A stretch of DNA of 9,756 bases from a virus. Its lineage: Duplodnaviria > Heunggongvirae > Uroviricota > Caudoviricetes. The notes under the pieces were generated by a model that made no database searches, was not told the DNA's origin, and saw only the letters and a program-made list of their open reading frames with translations. Each line of letters opens with the position of its first letter. The stretch's first letter is position 1. Shown piece after piece: positions 1 through 9,680 of the stretch. The DNA is taken from the IMG/VR virus record IMGVR_UViG_3300029878_000054, positions 1 through 9,756 of that record. One strand, given 5' to 3'. Both the position numbers and the translations under genes were made by a program.

Positions 1-160
1 ATAGTGCGTTCACCGAATACGTGCGCAACAACCGTCTTCCGGAGACTGTCATACGCGTAAAACAGCCAGCGCTGGCGCGATTTAGCCCCGACATAGCCCC
101 ACTGTTCGTCCATTTCCGCGCAGACGATGACGTCACTGCCCGGCTGTATGCGCGAGGTTA
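1..160 (-). mobile_element. insB: IS1 internal fragment (partial insB, running off the left edge; IS1 left end and insA absent)
   Basis: Minus-strand translation of 1-132 reads [48 protein letters not shown], which I recognise as the N-proximal part of IS1 InsB. The IS1-like DNA stops near 160, where Ala-rich repeat DNA begins, so the element is broken internally rather than at an inverted repeat. Confidence 0.8.
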
Positions 161-393
161 GCGTTTGTTTCGCTGCTCTTTGCTGCTGCCTCGCTATTTT
201 TCGCGTTGGTTTCTGATTTTTTGGCTGCTGTCGCGGAGTTTGCCGATGCAGTTTGTGAGTCTGCTGCCGCCTGTGCGCTGTTATCCGCATTCGTCTCAGA
301 CGTTTTTGCGGCCTTCGCGGAATTTCCTGCCGCCGTTGCCGAGGAAGCTGCACTAACCCTGCGTCTGTCAGCACAGTAAAACCCGGTGTGCAT
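133..393 (-). pseudogene. Chimeric remnant ORF: side-tail-fibre-like Ala/Ser/Thr/Asn-rich repeat fragment whose last codons and stop are supplied out of frame by IS1 DNA
   Basis: 86-aa ORF with SETNA-type repeats ([20 protein letters not shown] ... [21 protein letters not shown]) resembling the shaft repeats of lambdoid Stf-family tail fibres. The N-terminus ([13 protein letters not shown]) is implausible and the frame closes 4 codons upstream. The C-terminal NLAHTAGQ-stop lies inside the IS1 fragment. Confidence 0.4.
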
Positions 394-668: not shown

Positions 669-962
669 ATGAAAAAAATGTTGTTTTCTGCCGCTCTGGC
701 AATGCTTATTACAGGATGTGCTCAACAGACGTTTACTGTTGGAAACAAACCGACAGCAGTAACACCAAAGGAAACCATCACCCATCACTTCTTCGTTTCG
801 GGAATTGGACAGGAGAAAACTGTCGATGCAGCCAAAATTTGTGGCGGCGCAGAAAATGTTGTTAAAACAGAAACCCAGCAAACATTCGTAAATGGATTGC
901 TCGGTTTTATTACTTTAGGCATTTATACTCCGCTGGAAGCGCGTGTGTATTGCTCACAATAA
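669..962 (+). CDS. borD: Bor-family outer-membrane lipoprotein (lambda Bor / serum-resistance lipoprotein homolog), 97 aa
   Basis: MKKMLFSAALAMLITGC... has a signal peptide with lipobox ITGC and matches lambda Bor almost along its length. AGGA lies 7 nt upstream of the ATG at 669. The ORF-track start at 621 is a TTG extension and is not used. Confidence 0.9.
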   Translation: MKKMLFSAALAMLITGCAQQTFTVGNKPTAVTPKETITHHFFVSGIGQEKTVDAAKICGGAENVVKTETQQTFVNGLLGFITLGIYTPLEARVYCSQ

Positions 963-2753: not shown

Positions 2754-3851
2754 ATGAAAAAATTAACAGTGGCAATTTCTGCTGTAGCTGCATCAGTACT
2801 GATGGCGATGTCTGCTCAGGCAGCTGAAATTTATAATAAAGACAGTAACAAGCTGGATCTGTACGGGAAAGTTAATGCCAAGCACTACTTCTCCTCTAAT
2901 GATGCAGATGATGGTGATACTACTTATGCCCGTCTTGGCTTCAAAGGTGAAACCCAAATCAACGATCAACTGACTGGTTTCGGTCAGTGGGAATATGAAT
3001 TCAAAGGCAACCGCGCTGAATCTCAAGGTTCCTCCAAAGACAAAACCCGTCTTGCATTTGCAGGCCTGAAATTCGGTGACTACGGCTCAATCGATTACGG
3101 CCGTAACTACGGTGTAGCATACGACATCGGTGCGTGGACTGACGTTCTGCCAGAATTCGGTGGCGATACCTGGACCCAAACAGATGTGTTCATGACTGGT
3201 CGCACCACTGGTGTTGCAACCTATCGTAACAACGACTTCTTTGGTCTGGTTGATGGTCTGAACTTTGCTGCTCAGTACCAAGGCAAAAACGATCGTAGCG
3301 ATTTCGATAACTACACTGAAGGTAACGGTGATGGCTTCGGTTTCTCTGCTACCTATGAATACGAAGGATTCGGTATCGGTGCAACTTATGCGAAATCTGA
3401 TCGTACCGACACTCAAGTTAATGCAGGGAAAGTTCTTCCTGAAGTATTTGCTTCCGGTAAAAATGCAGAAGTTTGGGCCGCAGGTCTGAAATATGACGCT
3501 AACAACATTTACCTGGCCACTACCTATTCTGAAACCCAGAATATGACTGTATTTGCTGATCACTTCGTTGCTAATAAAGCCCAAAACTTCGAAGCTGTTG
3601 CACAATATCAGTTCGATTTCGGTCTGCGTCCGTCCGTTGCTTACCTGCAATCTAAAGGTAAAGATCTTGGAGTATGGGGCGATCAGGACTTAGTCAAATA
3701 TGTTGATGTAGGTGCAACCTATTACTTCAACAAAAATATGTCTACTTTCGTTGATTACAAAATCAACCTGCTTGACAAAAATGACTTCACTAAAGCACTC
3801 GGTGTAAGCACTGATGACATCGTTGCTGTAGGTCTGGTTTACCAGTTCTAA
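2754..3851 (+). CDS. nmpC: General-diffusion outer-membrane porin, NmpC/OmpD type (OmpC/OmpF/PhoE family), 365 aa, apparently intact
   Basis: Signal peptide ending AQA, then AEIYNKD; porin-family sequence throughout; C-terminal ...VGLVYQF with terminal Phe. High-expression-style codon usage. It sits between Q and the lysis cassette on the opposite strand, as nmpC does in DLP12. Confidence 0.93.
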
Positions 3852-5914: not shown

Positions 5915-6012
5915 GCTTCACCTCCGCAGAGGTCAAACGTTGGATGCAAAGAATCGCAGGTGCATTTCTGCATCTGTGAAGGGAGAAGAGAGTTTAGATT
6001 GTATGTGCGCAT
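5911..6012 (-). CDS. Small ORF (33 aa) upstream of and overlapping the ybcN start, at the position of ylcH in DLP12
   Basis: Minus-strand hand translation gives [33 protein letters not shown]-stop; its TGA overlaps the ybcN GTG (GTGA). Length equals K-12 ylcH (33 aa) as I recall, but the sequence identity is not verified. Confidence 0.35.
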
Positions 6013-6301
6013 AAACGTCCCCGTTTAGCGCAGAAGTCACCGGAGGTGTTCAGGCTCCGATGCGATAATTATGACGATCTGATTTTGGAAAATCAAATTT
6101 AAGTAACCGCCAACCTATAATTTTCAATCAAGATTTCATTTATTAGCTCACTCATATAAAAATACATTACAACGTTTTTATCTCTTAATTTATGAAGGCA
6201 ACCTCGAAAAACAAATCACCCAAACACTTTAAAACAATTAAACCCGTTTAAAATTACAATTACATTTAGAAAGCAAACTTTCAAAAGATGTGATGATACA
6301 A

Positions 6302-6330
6302 TTGCATAAAACAAATACTTGGGGTAAAAT
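6302..6330 (+). promoter_or_regulatory. Candidate sigma70 promoter for the AT-rich cargo operon (TTGCAT-N17-TAAAAT)
   Basis: -35-like TTGCAT at 6302-6307 and -10-like TAAAAT at 6325-6330 with 17-nt spacing, about 100 nt upstream of the first ATG of the island. AT-rich DNA generates such matches easily, hence low confidence. Confidence 0.3.
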
Positions 6331-6436
6331 ATAAAAATAACACTCCCAGCTTAACGCTAGGTGGCGGTAGCGTGTATTTTTCAAATACGCCTATCACCCC
6401 ATTATGTTTTTTCATATTTAAGAGATTGGTTATATA

Positions 6437-6811
6437 ATGGAACTAATATACACTTATATCCACAATTATAAAGGTTTAAATAAGCTGTCCCTCCCCACCT
6501 CAAGTAAATTTACCTTTAGCCATAAAGGTAACGTCCTTACAATTGCTAAGAAAGATTTAAGTCGTGACTATTATAGCAATATTCCCTGTACATTAATTTT
6601 AGGGAAAAATGGTGTTGGAAAGTCATCAATTTTAGATTTCATTAGTAGCTTTATTTACGATTTTGAAGGTAGCGGTTATAGCATCTGGAATGAAAATGAT
6701 AAACTTATAATTATCACAAGCAATTGCAAACCTCCTGTAATATTATCCAAAATGCAAACGGAACTGATTGATAATAATGAACATTTTTTAGAAGAAACAA
6801 AATCAATCTAA
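6437..6811 (+). CDS. N-terminal portion of an ABC/AAA15-type ATPase (Walker A only); probably the 5' half of a gene split by a frameshift
   Basis: P-loop LILGKNGVGKSSILD at residues ~53-67; no Walker B, signature or H-loop motif in this ORF. The frame ends at 6811, 31 nt after the downstream frame opens. Confidence 0.7.
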   Translation: MELIYTYIHNYKGLNKLSLPTSSKFTFSHKGNVLTIAKKDLSRDYYSNIPCTLILGKNGVGKSSILDFISSFIYDFEGSGYSIWNENDKLIIITSNCKPPVILSKMQTELIDNNEHFLEETKSI

Positions 6812-6843
6812 TAAAGATAAATAACACAATCGACCTCAAAAGT

Positions 6844-8223
6844 ATGTTAGTTGGACAAAAAAAGAAAAAAAACGATTCGATTTCTAAAGATTTATCACTG
6901 TCATATTTTTTGCAAGGCAGTAAAACACGCAATAAGAAATTACTCAAGCAATTAATTTCATTTTCAGACCACAGTTCATGGGCTAAAGACAATTTATCAA
7001 GACTTAATACTAAATTTCAATTTGAAATAGAAAACTCACCAGTATATAAAATAAATTCTATTATAAAAAACAATGATATTGGTGACAAAGGACTTTTTGG
7101 AGCTATTGAATACTTTTTTGATACGTTGAATGATAGAATTAAAAACAATAAACTCCCTAGATATATTGAACGTGATTTAGATTCTTTAGGTATTTCACTT
7201 GTGGATATACTCAATCATGGGATAGATTACGATGAAGATTTTATTATTAGCATTATTTTTAACAAAGAAAGATCATTAAATTTCCTCGCAACCTTTTCAT
7301 ATCACAAAATAATTTACTTGATGCTTTTGCCTGCAATAACATGGCATTTACTCAAGACATCAAAAATCCCTAAAGACATATGTGAGACTGTTTATTTATT
7401 TTGCTTGTGTCGCGCGTATCTTGAAGAAAAAGATCCAGCAAAAACTATATTAGAGACTTTAGATGAATTTAACGTTAATGTTAAATTTCAGTCAAAAATA
7501 GAAATGTTATCTGAACATATCTCCGACATTATAGGTAATATAGCTGATATATTAGAAAACACAGCAAGAGACCCAGTTGATAGTTTATCTTTCACAGTTG
7601 AAGAACCAAAGCAGATTATGGAGTTAATAAGATTAGTTGATAGGTTACCAAATGGCGTATCATCGCGATTTAAGTATGGTTGGGATTCACTTAGTTCAGG
7701 AGAGTTTGCAAAATTAAACCTTTTCAATCAACTTTATGATTCTATAGAACATAGCAACAGCAAAAATATTATAATATTATTAGATGAGTGTGATTTATAT
7801 CTACACCCTGAATGGCAACGAGTTATTTTTTCAGAAATTATAGATTTAACATTAAGATATAAACAAAGTAAAAATATTCAATTAGTATTTACAACTCACT
7901 CCCCTATACTCGCAAGTGATTTTTTGCCATCAGATATAATATATCTTGAAAGAGATCATAATCAAGGAACCTATACTAAGAAAGTAGAGTTTGGTTTCGG
8001 AGCAACCATATCAGAATTATATATAAATGGTTTTTTTATTGATGCTACAATAGGACAGCACGCACATAATTATCTAAACTCAATAATAAAAAACTCAGAT
8101 GACGGTAATTTAAATAAACATCAAAAAACCATACTATCACAAATTAAAAATAAACTTCTCATAAATCTTATTGATCTGAAGTTAAACAAAAACAATGATA
8201 AAACAGATTCTTTTGAGAAATGA
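6844..8223 (+). CDS. C-terminal portion of the same ABC/AAA15-type ATPase (signature, Walker B and H-loop motifs); a fused model 6437..8223 gives ~595 aa if one T is added to the T6 run at 6784-6789
   Basis: LSSGE signature-like motif, Walker B IIILLDECDLYLHP and H-loop VFTTHSP; no Walker A. The frame is open upstream to 6781 with no ATG before 6844. Confidence 0.7.
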   Translation: MLVGQKKKKNDSISKDLSLSYFLQGSKTRNKKLLKQLISFSDHSSWAKDNLSRLNTKFQFEIENSPVYKINSIIKNNDIGDKGLFGAIEYFFDTLNDRIKNNKLPRYIERDLDSLGISLVDILNHGIDYDEDFIISIIFNKERSLNFLATFSYHKIIYLMLLPAITWHLLKTSKIPKDICETVYLFCLCRAYLEEKDPAKTILETLDEFNVNVKFQSKIEMLSEHISDIIGNIADILENTARDPVDSLSFTVEEPKQIMELIRLVDRLPNGVSSRFKYGWDSLSSGEFAKLNLFNQLYDSIEHSNSKNIIILLDECDLYLHPEWQRVIFSEIIDLTLRYKQSKNIQLVFTTHSPILASDFLPSDIIYLERDHNQGTYTKKVEFGFGATISELYINGFFIDATIGQHAHNYLNSIIKNSDDGNLNKHQKTILSQIKNKLLINLIDLKLNKNNDKTDSFEK

Positions 8224-8741
8224 GTAAAAAAATGATAAAAATAAACAAAGACTTCAATGTTGATGTAAAAATATCCTTTTCTAAAATAGTAAGCAAAGTT
8301 AATAAACGCGTGAAGCAGAGGAAGTTACTGAACATTACTCCCGATGAAGTAGAGTTTCTAAATACAATCAACAAAAAAACTATCAGAAAATTAGTTTTTT
8401 CAAAACCCAAACGATTAAAAAATATAATCATCAAAATATACAACAAACACCCAATTGTGTGTGAGTACTATTCTCCTGATTATTTTTTAAGGCACTTAAA
8501 TTTACAACCATTAACAAACCTACAATTACCTTTAAAAACAAAAGAAAACAAAAAAATAGTTTATAATGAACTAGCACATGCCATCAAAATAATCACATCT
8601 TTCTCTCAAACTACACAAAGCCTAATACTTGAGGATATATTAAATACACATTTCTCACCACAAAAATTATCTAGTTTAAGAGATAAGATTCTTAATCTTA
8701 TAAGTATCAAGAATGGTGGTCCTAAAGGAAAATACCATTAA
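8220..8741 (+). CDS. Hypothetical lysine-rich basic protein, 173 aa, unknown function
   Basis: ORF whose ATG overlaps the stop of the ATPase ORF (ATGA); no recognisable catalytic motif. An alternative start at 8232 (MIKINK) is possible. Same extreme AT-richness as its neighbours. Confidence 0.5.
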   Translation: MSKKMIKINKDFNVDVKISFSKIVSKVNKRVKQRKLLNITPDEVEFLNTINKKTIRKLVFSKPKRLKNIIIKIYNKHPIVCEYYSPDYFLRHLNLQPLTNLQLPLKTKENKKIVYNELAHAIKIITSFSQTTQSLILEDILNTHFSPQKLSSLRDKILNLISIKNGGPKGKYH

Positions 8742-9423
8742 GTTATTTCCATCATGGGTTAAAAATATTTCTGAAATATTTAAATACTCACTTATTGATA
8801 GAGAAACAGCGTATCAATTGAACAGTTTTTTAGACATTAGCATATGCCCATATTGCAACAGTGAAGAAATTGAACAAGTAGAAGACCATACAGGTACTAG
8901 CTACAGGCCAGCATTTGATCATTTCATACCTAAGTACAAATATCCGTTGATCTCCTTTAGTTTATTTAACTTAATTCCTAGCTGCACTAAATGCAATAGT
9001 ACTTATAAAAAATCACTCGATCCGATCATGAGCCCATTTTCAAATCCTTTTCTTGAAGGTGTAAATGACACTCAGCTTTTTGATTTTAATTATGACATTG
9101 ATTATATATATAGAGATGGCCAAATTGATGATGATCACATTCAAATTATACTAAAAAAACAAAAAAACAACATCGATGAAAACATGGCTAAACTTAGCAT
9201 AGAGAATAGATATAATTCACGCATTAGAAAGAAAGCAGTTAGATTAATTGCAAAGAGAGCATTTGATCTAAAAGCTTATGAAGAAAATTTCATTATAGAA
9301 CCAACTCTTTTCGCTACTTTCGGTTACGAGACTAACATTGAGCCGCTAAAGCATATGCATAAAAAACTTACTCAAGATGCAATATTAGTATTCTGCAACA
9401 AACAAGTACCGTTAATTGAATAA
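8713..9423 (+). CDS. HNH (His-Me finger) endonuclease-domain protein, 236 aa
   Basis: CPYC ... (22 aa) ... DHFIP ... NLIPS ... CTKCN, i.e. the CxxC / DH / N / CxxC arrangement typical of HNH nucleases, in the N-terminal half. The start overlaps the preceding ORF by 29 nt. Confidence 0.7.
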   Translation: MVVLKENTIKLFPSWVKNISEIFKYSLIDRETAYQLNSFLDISICPYCNSEEIEQVEDHTGTSYRPAFDHFIPKYKYPLISFSLFNLIPSCTKCNSTYKKSLDPIMSPFSNPFLEGVNDTQLFDFNYDIDYIYRDGQIDDDHIQIILKKQKNNIDENMAKLSIENRYNSRIRKKAVRLIAKRAFDLKAYEENFIIEPTLFATFGYETNIEPLKHMHKKLTQDAILVFCNKQVPLIE

Positions 9424-9680
9424 GTAAAATGAAAGGATATCGAGCTATATAATGTAGTATGTCGAAAAATCAAACAGAAAAAAATCGAATAGTTACACTG
9501 TGCTCGGTGCTGTCTTCATGCTCCGTTCCTCTCGTAGGCTAGTAAAATTCGCGTCATCACCGGGCTTGGGGGCCATCATCGAAAATCTGATTGGTGCTTT
9601 TGTGCCAAGAGATTTCCTCTTCGGTTACCAATCGGTAGTGAATCGTTCGCTAGATATTGCTGACATCGACCAGATCGCCC

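What the first reader, a model, noticed from the sequence alone, without database searches (positions are those of the whole stretch)
8713..9423. Predicted effector: HNH nuclease with complete zinc-ligand and catalytic motif
Seen in sequence: C45-P-Y-C48, D69-H70, N86 and C91-T-K-C94 are spaced as in His-Me finger (HNH) nucleases. The C-terminal ~130 aa are acidic and Asp/Asn-rich with no recognisable motif. Established knowledge: HNH nucleases are the DNA-cleaving effectors in Septu and several other defence systems and are usually kept in check by the partner ATPase. If the ATPase is truly frameshifted, an unregulated nuclease could be toxic, which would make the frameshift biologically meaningful.
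Basis: partly seen in the sequence, partly recalled or inferred. Interest (0 to 1): 0.45.

Follow-up and report, generated by a model that had tools for sequence, protein, structure and literature searches.

The report
Broken Septu-like HNH nuclease gene fragment
The ORF does encode a real HNH nuclease module of a Septu-like phage-defence pair carried by a lambdoid prophage, but it is only the last 60% of a 397-residue gene that a 2-bp deletion has split, next to an ATPase gene that is also frameshifted, so it is a decayed copy of a catalogued system and not a free, active effector.

Summary
The motif is real. All but C91 (at least 90%) are invariant in 50 homologues from several phyla, as is N95.

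The ORF is not a gene. Six complete E. coli genomes carry the same island at 99.3-99.8% identity. In three of them the nuclease CDS is 397 aa. The window lacks TT at 8723 (CCTAAAGG instead of CCTTTAAAGG). This splits the gene into 8232-8741 and 8713-9423.

The partner ATPase is split by a T7-to-T6 slip at 6784-6789. All four ORF products occur exactly on 28-49 public contigs, so the frameshifts are lineage alleles and not read errors.

The native protein also has a roughly 200-residue helical N-domain that PtuB lacks.

The "unregulated toxic nuclease" idea is not supported. The nuclease gene is broken too. Alleles with a broken ATPase and an intact nuclease exist. Published PtuB is non-toxic without PtuA.

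Verdict: ordinary, a pseudogenised member of a known kind.

The parts
6437..6811 (+). 5' fragment of the partner ATPase pseudogene (124-aa ORF, carries Walker A GKNGVGKS). It ends early because of a -1 slip in the T-run at 6784-6789 (T6 here, T7 in intact relatives).
   Evidence: PDC-M62A 3.7e-13, profile positions 1-99. for the indel. The intact 595-aa CDS is annotated in TW10828.
6844..8223 (+). 3' fragment of the ATPase pseudogene (459-aa ORF: ABC signature LSSGE, Walker B IILLDECD, H-loop TTHS). Together with 6437-6811 it corresponds to one 595-aa PtuA-like ABC/SMC-type ATPase.
   Evidence: AAA_21 2.2e-9, AAA_15 4.7e-8. (PDC-M62A 1.2e-33). (full length 4e-44, end to end). (PDB PtuA chains, 3e-7 to 1e-5).
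8226..8232 (+). A-run between the ATPase stop (8221-8223) and the native nuclease start (ATG 8232). It is A7 here and A8 in all six complete-genome relatives. The change lies upstream of the native start codon and only makes the upstream ATG at 8220 appear in frame.
8232..8741 (+). 5' fragment of the nuclease pseudogene. It encodes native residues 1-163 (all-helical N-terminal domain, MIKINK...) and then runs out of frame to a stop at 8739-8741.
   Evidence: The N-domain is conserved end to end in homologues. PDLC04741 covers residues 1-347 of the full-length protein. phrog_9626 matches residues 1-108.
8721..8727 (+). Site of the 2-bp deletion that splits the nuclease gene: CCTAAAG here, CCTTTAAAG in relatives (a single T at 8723 instead of TTT).
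   Evidence: All 23 contigs read that carry the 236-aa product also carry the frameshifted ATPase.
8713..9423 (+). Residues 5-236 equal native residues 166-397, which is the whole PtuB-like module (HNH core plus helical C-terminal domain).
8845..8997 (+). HNH beta-beta-alpha-metal core: C45-x-x-C48-N49, D69-H70 (general base), N86, C91-x-x-C94-N95.
   Evidence: for invariance. for secondary structure. The H-to-N spacing of 16 residues matches the catalytic H75/N91 of Septu Ec-B88 PtuB (PMC13096335).
9160..9420 (+). Helical C-terminal domain (ORF residues about 150-236). It is inferred to be the docking domain for the ATPase C-terminal extension, by analogy with PtuB.
   Evidence: for the helices. 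for the fold match over most of PtuB. PMC12819146 for the role of the PtuB C-terminal domain. The docking role here is an inference.

Best explanation
The 236-codon ORF is the downstream piece of a pseudogenised HNH nuclease gene. The native product is a 397-residue protein. It has an all-helical N-terminal domain of about 200 residues, followed by a PtuB-like module made of a zinc-stabilised HNH (H-N-N) active site and a helical C-terminal domain.

The gene sits immediately after a 595-residue ABC/SMC-type ATPase. Together they form a two-gene, AT-rich moron on the opposite strand between the ninB (ybcN) and replication-P genes of a DLP12-like lambdoid prophage of E. coli. The pair belongs to the family PADLOC lists as candidate system PDC-M62, a long-form relative of Septu (PtuA/PtuB).

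By analogy with PtuAB, the intact system is inferred to work as follows. ATPase oligomers hold the nuclease through its C-terminal helices. A phage cue, coupled to the nucleotide state of the ATPase, licenses the HNH site to cut nucleic acid (nicked DNA in vitro, tRNA loss in vivo for the relatives). This arrests the infected cell.

In this window the system is dead. A T7-to-T6 slip breaks the ATPase and a 2-bp deletion breaks the nuclease. The allele series in public assemblies indicates that the ATPase broke first.

Shown here: the motif, the family, the fold, the gene pairing, the frameshifts and their order. Inferred: the complex, the trigger, the substrate and the defence phenotype.
For: Motif and its invariance.

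Family: PADLOC PDC-M62B 2.7e-32 on the fragment and 1.5e-33 on full length, PDC-M62A 4e-44 end to end, weaker PtuB (about 1e-8) and PtuA (about 1e-15 to 1e-19) hits. PADLOC's PDC-M62 calls coincide with Septu calls in 203 B. cereus-group loci (PMC11811056).

Conserved ATPase-then-HNH adjacency: Enterovibrio, B. cereus and Larkinella, the last next to type I R-M and SduA.

Full-length conservation: 396-401-aa homologues cover 85-100% of the query across Enterobacterales and Enterovibrio. The profile search finds 8,236 cluster representatives, and the best 150 mostly match the profile end to end.

Frameshifts. They are real alleles: the exact products occur on 41, 28, 32 and 49 contigs. The TT deletion was found only on the ATPase-frameshift background, in 23 of 23 contigs read. 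The intermediates L012 and L013 exist.

Context and composition.
Against: No experiment was found for any PDC-M62 member, so defence activity, substrate and complex are extrapolated from PtuAB.

Sequence similarity to PtuB is confined to the HNH core. NCBIfam PtuB scores 16.3 bits against a cut-off of 150, and TIGR02646 scores 16.1 against 52.15. PDB hmmsearch gives E 0.0077. Foldseek support is weak (E 0.065, TM 0.46) and absent for the full-length model.

The N-terminal domain has no counterpart in PtuB and no assigned role, so regulation may differ.

The 236-aa fragment retains an ATG, and the whole PtuB-like module lies within it. Low-level expression of a partly functional piece cannot be excluded.
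Confidence: 0.8

Rival explanations
1. One reading: ORF 8713-9423 is a complete, stand-alone HNH effector. With the ATPase frameshifted it is unregulated and potentially toxic.
For: The ORF has an ATG. It contains every conserved HNH residue and the whole region that superposes on 234-aa PtuB. Septu nicking activity is damped by ATP through PtuA (PMC12819146).
Against: Homologues are 396-401 aa with a conserved N-domain. Relatives at 99.3-99.8% identity have two more bases at 8723 and a single 397-aa CDS. There is no Shine-Dalgarno sequence before ATG 8713 (...AGTATCAAGAATG). The fragment alone models less confidently than the same region inside the full protein (pLDDT 76.8 against about 81-95). 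PtuB alone is not toxic and requires PtuA (PMC11555353, PMC12819146). Genomes with a broken ATPase and an intact nuclease exist.
Confidence: 0.05
2. The homopolymer tracts act as contingency loci, giving reversible on/off phase variation of a prophage-borne defence system. On this view the window simply shows an OFF state.
For: Length polymorphism at four A/T runs among near-identical islands. T6 occurs on both the 6766G and 6766A SNP backgrounds. A6 and A7 at 8367-8373 each occur with both T6 and T7, which suggests recurrent slippage.
Against: The runs are short (6-8 nt) and expected by composition in DNA of 27-30% GC. The TT deletion is not a simple reversible slip. Recombination between alleles could create the same combinations. 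No within-sample heterogeneity was examined.
Confidence: 0.1
3. The frameshifts are sequencing or assembly errors, and the window really encodes an intact system.
For: Two of the three differences from intact relatives are in homopolymers, which are the classic error sites.
Against: The exact 124-, 459-, 173- and 236-aa products occur on 49, 32, 28 and 41 contigs from NCBI, ENA, JGI and Logan assemblies of independent samples. Five fetched loci are identical to the window across the whole island (L014 and L021 are the same contig, so four independent contigs). The TT loss is not a homopolymer-error signature.
Confidence: 0.03
4. It is a phage housekeeping HNH (packaging- or terminase-associated) or a homing endonuclease, and not a defence effector.
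For: It lies in a prophage, and weak PHROG HNH-endonuclease hits exist (5.7e-8 and 4.6e-7).
Against: It is on the opposite strand to the flanking phage genes, far from the terminase, AT-rich, and paired with an ABC ATPase. The same pair occurs outside prophages, next to R-M and Shedu genes. The only match in 50,697 phage records is one distant partial hit.
Confidence: 0.02

Closest known systems
PADLOC candidate system PDC-M62 (PDC-M62A ATPase + PDC-M62B HNH protein; unpublished candidate of Payne et al., PADLOC-DB v2)
   Same: Both proteins hit the PDC-M62 models best, and over essentially their full length when the frameshifts are repaired (A 4e-44, residues 1-570; B 1.5e-33, with PDLC04741 covering residues 1-347). 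Gene order and sizes are the same (about 600 aa followed by about 330-400 aa).
   Different: In the window both genes are frameshifted. No published experimental test of PDC-M62 was found: only one paper in the library mentions it, as a duplicate of Septu calls.
Septu PtuB / PtuA (E. coli Septu, PDB 8ee4/8ee7/8eea; Septu Ec-B88)
   Different: The native protein is 397 aa against about 210-250 aa, with an extra helical N-domain of about 200 residues. Sequence identity is 11-20%. It scores far below the NCBIfam PtuB and TIGR02646 cut-offs. The ATPase is longer (595 against 465 aa). Trigger, substrate and stoichiometry are untested.
Type I-A retron effectors (Retron-Eco7/Ec78, Ec83 PtuAB)
   Different: There is no reverse transcriptase or ncRNA in the island. 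It holds only two genes and there are no Rfam hits in the window.
Other ATPase-nuclease defence pairs (Gabija GajA, PARIS AriA/AriB, OLD, AbiL)
   Same: The ATPase shares the AAA_15/21 ABC-type core (PADLOC GajA, AriA and AbiLi hits of 1e-13 to 1e-17).
   Different: The nuclease is HNH and not Toprim. There is no GajB-like helicase. These similarities are restricted to the ATPase core.

Membership tests
HNH / His-Me finger nuclease superfamily | Catalytic His at the end of strand 1 (often D/H-H), a structural Asn on strand 2, and a metal-ligand His/Asn on the following helix | tested here: met
   D69-H70, N86 and N95 are invariant in 50 homologues. DSSP of the full-length model gives strands at 229-231 and 248-250 and a helix at 253-259.
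HNH / His-Me finger nuclease superfamily | Two CxxC pairs forming a structural zinc site around the core | tested here: met
   C45, C48 and C94 are invariant and C91 is at least 90% conserved. Actual zinc binding was not tested.
HNH / His-Me finger nuclease superfamily | Pfam PF01844 at or above its gathering score | tested here: inconclusive
   21.4 bits, exactly the cut-off, on the 236-aa fragment. 18.8 bits, below the cut-off, on the full-length 397-aa protein.
HNH / His-Me finger nuclease superfamily | Metal-dependent nuclease activity | not testable with these tools
   Requires purified protein with an H231A control.
PADLOC PDC-M62 | Adjacent PDC-M62A and PDC-M62B genes, each matching its HMM | tested here: met
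   these are the best hits for both proteins, with full-length coverage in the repaired alleles. The genes are adjacent and on the same strand.
Septu (PtuA + PtuB) | ABC-type AAA_15/21 ATPase directly upstream of an HNH protein | tested here: met
   The pairing is conserved in distant taxa.
Septu (PtuA + PtuB) | PtuB fold: HNH domain plus a helical C-terminal domain that binds the PtuA C-terminal extension | tested here: met
Septu (PtuA + PtuB) | Curated sequence-model membership (NCBIfam NF041761 PtuB, TIGR02646, NF041760 PtuA) | tested here: not met
   16.3 bits against 150, 16.1 against 52.15 and 46 against 500. These models target the retron-type clade. PADLOC PtuB and PtuA HMMs hit only partially (about 1e-8, and 1e-15 to 1e-19).
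Septu (PtuA + PtuB) | PtuB-size protein (about 210-250 aa) with the HNH core near the N-terminus | tested here: not met
   The native protein is 397 aa, with about 200 residues before the first CxxC.
Septu (PtuA + PtuB) | Anti-phage activity that needs both the ATPase and HNH motifs | not testable with these tools
   Shown for Septu Ec-B88 (PMC13096335). Not tested for this family.
Type I-A retron effector pair | Adjacent reverse transcriptase and msr/msd ncRNA | tested here: not met
   There is no RT ORF in or next to the island. There are no Rfam matches in the window.
Gabija / PARIS / OLD | Toprim nuclease domain (GajA, AriB, OLD), and a GajB helicase for Gabija | tested here: not met
   No Toprim or helicase hits were found. 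Only the ABC core of the ATPase is shared.

The most novel reading that the evidence does not exclude
The long-form PtuB-like family has at least 8,236 50%-identity clusters, is unnamed in Pfam and is labelled 'hypothetical protein' in RefSeq. It may be a mechanistically distinct Septu variant in which the conserved N-terminal helical domain of about 200 residues acts as a phage sensor or autoinhibitory element.

The natural allele series in E. coli runs from intact, to ATPase frameshift, to nuclease frameshift, with recurrent slips in short A/T runs. This could reflect either selection against a nuclease orphaned by ATPase loss or slippage-driven on/off switching of a prophage defence moron.
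Probability: 0.12. Interest if true: 0.5.

Novelty: new member of a known kind. Interest (0 to 1): 0.2.

Why it matters
For this window the result is mainly corrective. A motif-perfect "effector ORF" turns out to be a pseudogene fragment. The biological story built on it, a toxic unregulated nuclease, is contradicted both by the locus and by data on the closest characterised relatives.

There are modest wider points. A very large family of long-form PtuB-like HNH proteins sits just below Pfam's HNH threshold, so it goes unannotated. PHROGs even stores its frameshift pieces as separate families. The family's extra N-terminal domain has no experimental characterisation that was found.

The E. 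coli alleles offer a ready-made natural series (intact, ATPase-dead, both-dead) for testing the dependence of the nuclease on the ATPase.

Tried and rejected
- Foldseek with the 236-aa model gave only a weak top hit to Septu PtuB (E 0.065).
- NCBIfam gave no hit above any cut-off.
- A profile search of PDB sequences gave only a marginal retron HNH hit (E 0.0077).
- The Rfam scan of the window found nothing, so no retron ncRNA or other RNA family.
- The repeat search around the island found only short AT-rich chance matches and no flanking insertion repeats.
- The promoter and terminator scan was not above shuffled expectation (24 against 20.6 +/- 4.4), so no promoter is claimed.
- tblastn against 50,697 phage records found one distant partial hit only.
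- I tried to establish whether the original Bacillus Septu of Doron et al. 2018 is a long-form member. That paper and Li et al. 2024 are not held. A literature search returned nothing. The cluster names of the Bacillus homologues are only "hypothetical protein" or "HNH endonuclease". The question is unresolved.
- The Vassallo et al. E. coli defence screen does not mention HNH or Septu systems.
- Weak Pfam hits (DUF1507, zinc ribbons) were treated as noise.

Full report
**Observation.** ORF 8713-9423 (+, 236 aa) exists. The pattern is not a chance one. In a 50-sequence alignment of homologues from Enterobacterales, Vibrionaceae, Pseudoalteromonas, the Bacillus cereus group, Vagococcus and Bacteroidota (24% mean column identity), C45, C48, N49, D69, H70, N86, L87, P89, C94, N95 and F123 are invariant and C91 is at least 90% conserved (the same columns in full-length numbering +161). 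Pfam HNH (PF01844) scores 21.4 bits, exactly its gathering threshold. The PADLOC model PDC-M62B scores 2.7e-32, and PtuB (Septu) models about 1e-8.

**The ORF is a fragment.** A megablast of 6300-9500 against 5,426 complete E. coli genomes found the island in six, at 99.3-99.8% identity. All six are 3-4 bases longer than the window. Base-by-base comparison shows three differences in the window:
- It lacks one T in a T-run at 6784-6789 (T6 against T7).
- It lacks one A in the run at 8226-8232 (A7 against A8, just upstream of the native nuclease start).
- It lacks TT at 8723 (CCTAAAGG against CCTTTAAAGG).

In TW10828, EC38 and AR_0077 the annotation is a 595-aa AAA family ATPase followed by a 397-aa hypothetical protein. 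In the window the ATPase is split into 6437-6811 and 6844-8223. The second gene is split into 8232-8741 (the ORF list shows 8220 because A7 brings an upstream ATG into frame) and 8713-9423. From K5 onward the ORF equals native residues 166-397.

The 397-aa length is ancestral. Homologues of 396-401 aa cover 85-100% of the query, down to 43% identity in Ewingella and 31% in Enterovibrio. A profile of the family finds 8,236 50%-identity cluster representatives (3,259 at E of 1e-30 or lower), and the best 150 mostly match the profile end to end.

**The frameshifts are real alleles.** All four ORF products of the window exist as exact sequences in the 15-billion-protein collection, on 49, 32, 28 and 41 contigs from NCBI, ENA, JGI and Logan. 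Five fetched loci are identical to the window over the island (two of them are the same contig). All 23 contigs read that encode the 236-aa product also have the split ATPase. Contigs chosen through the ATPase fragment include ones with an intact 397-aa nuclease (L012, L013) and one with the 322-aa allele (L011). The haplotypes form a series:
- intact (6766G, T7, A8, TTT)
- L012 (T6)
- L013 (T6 and A7)
- the window (T6, A7 and the TT deletion)

So the ATPase broke first and the nuclease later. T6 also occurs on the 6766A background (L011). A separate A7-to-A6 slip at 8367-8373 gives a 322-aa annotated product that is the most frequent allele listed (P0122, 200 contigs). Short A/T runs in this island of 26-31% GC are therefore recurrent mutation sites.

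**What the protein is.** With the frameshift repaired, the protein matches PDC-M62B at 1.5e-33, and PDLC04741 covers residues 1-347. The ATPase matches PDC-M62A at 4e-44 over residues 1-570. A paper on the B. cereus group reports that PADLOC's PDC-M62 calls duplicated its Septu calls at 203 loci (PMC11811056), so PDC-M62 is a Septu-like clade.

An AF2 model of the 397-aa protein is confident (pLDDT 90.5, pTM 0.86). It shows:
- helices from residue 10 to 201
- a beta-beta-alpha unit (strands 229-231 and 248-250, helix 253-259) that carries D230-H231, N247 and C255-N256
- two further short strands
- a helical C-terminal region (314-389)

**Context.** The window is a DLP12-like lambdoid prophage. 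Iss/Bor lies on the + strand, and Rz, R and S on the - strand. A porin gene follows on the + strand, then Q, RusA, YbcO, NinE and YbcN/NinB on the - strand. The island lies on the + strand between ninB and replication gene P, antisense to its neighbours. From general knowledge of lambda, this is the position of ren.

Homologous pairs, a 560-650-aa AAA_15/21 ATPase directly upstream of the HNH protein, occur in the following places:
- the Enterovibrio chromosome
- B. cereus, as two tandem pairs
- Larkinella, between a type I R-M system and an SduA (Shedu) gene

PHROGs holds the ATPase (phrog_8939) and, tellingly, the two pieces of the A6 frameshift allele as separate unknown-function families (phrog_8644 of 322 aa and phrog_9626 of 108 aa). 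GenBank phages lack the gene apart from one distant partial hit. There is no RT gene and no Rfam family in the window, so this is not a retron.

**Mechanism (inferred).** For Septu and retron PtuAB, the papers read here report the following:
- Both Walker motifs and the HNH H/N residues are needed for defence, and the outcome is abortive infection. tRNA-Tyr is cleaved in the variable loop during infection (PMC13096335).
- In vitro the complex nicks supercoiled DNA. For stand-alone Septu this is damped by ATP. PtuB requires PtuA for function (PMC12819146).
- PtuA or PtuB expressed singly does not arrest growth, and only PtuAB does (PMC11555353).

I infer that the intact PDC-M62-type pair works in the same general way: ATPase scaffold, docked HNH, phage-triggered licensing, and nucleic-acid cleavage causing growth arrest. 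The substrate is unknown and the role of the N-domain is open. In this window neither protein can be made full length, so the system is a relic.

The hypothesis was that an ATPase frameshift would leave a toxic unregulated nuclease. Three things argue against it. The nuclease is itself disrupted. Genomes with a broken ATPase and an intact nuclease exist. The PtuB relatives need their ATPase. The observed order of decay (ATPase first, then nuclease) is compatible with either neutral decay or weak counter-selection, and the data here cannot separate the two.

**Novelty and score.** The family is catalogued as a PADLOC candidate and is related to Septu. The same island is present in many E. coli assemblies. 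The window copy is a pseudogene. It is a new (decayed) member of a known kind, of low interest in itself (0.2).

The residual novel reading has a probability of about 0.12. It holds that the long-form family with its uncharacterised N-domain works differently from PtuB, and that the allele series reflects selection or phase-variable switching.

Noticed in passing
window 6784-6789, about 6859-6865, 8226-8232, 8367-8373, 8723: Near-identical islands in E. coli differ mainly by indels in short A/T runs: T7/T6, +A in L004, A8/A7, A7/A6 and TTT/T. T6 occurs on two SNP backgrounds (6766G and 6766A). All four T-run x A-run combinations exist, which suggests recurrent slippage or recombination.
   Followed up: partly
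window 8232-9423; loci L002, L004, L005, L011: The commonest allele listed for the nuclease gene in public data is a 322-aa annotated product (P0122, 200 contigs). It is created by an A7-to-A6 slip at 8367-8373 and so lacks the first 75 residues. PHROGs stores the two pieces as separate unknown-function families (phrog_8644 and phrog_9626).
   Followed up: partly
window 8713-9423 compared with L001:8435-9625: Pfam HNH scores 21.4 bits (equal to the cut-off) on the fragment but 18.8 bits (below it) on the full-length protein. A family of at least 8,236 clusters is therefore largely left without a domain call and is named 'hypothetical protein' in RefSeq.
   Followed up: yes
L009 (B. cereus) 2862-12435; L010 (Larkinella) 1-13032: The B. 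cereus locus has two tandem ATPase+HNH pairs plus an extra HNH_4-like protein. The Larkinella pair lies between a type I R-M system and an SduA (Shedu) gene, a typical defence-island context.
   Followed up: no
window 2754-3851 (+), with AT-rich 2200-2750 upstream: A 365-aa porin gene is embedded in the prophage late region on the strand opposite the lysis and Q genes. It is preceded by a stretch of 30-35% GC and looks like another moron. Iss/Bor lipoprotein is at 669-962 (+).
   Followed up: no
window 1-353; ORF 133-393 (-): The left end of the window does not align with the TW10828 prophage (the blastn match starts at 354). The ORF there is an Ala/Ser/Asn-rich repeat (SETNA...) reminiscent of tail-fibre repeats, which may mark a prophage rearrangement or deletion junction.
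   Followed up: no
window about 6000-6436 and 9424-9500: GC content falls from about 50% to 26-31% across the island and recovers near 9500. No flanking direct or inverted repeats that might mark an insertion were found.
   Followed up: partly
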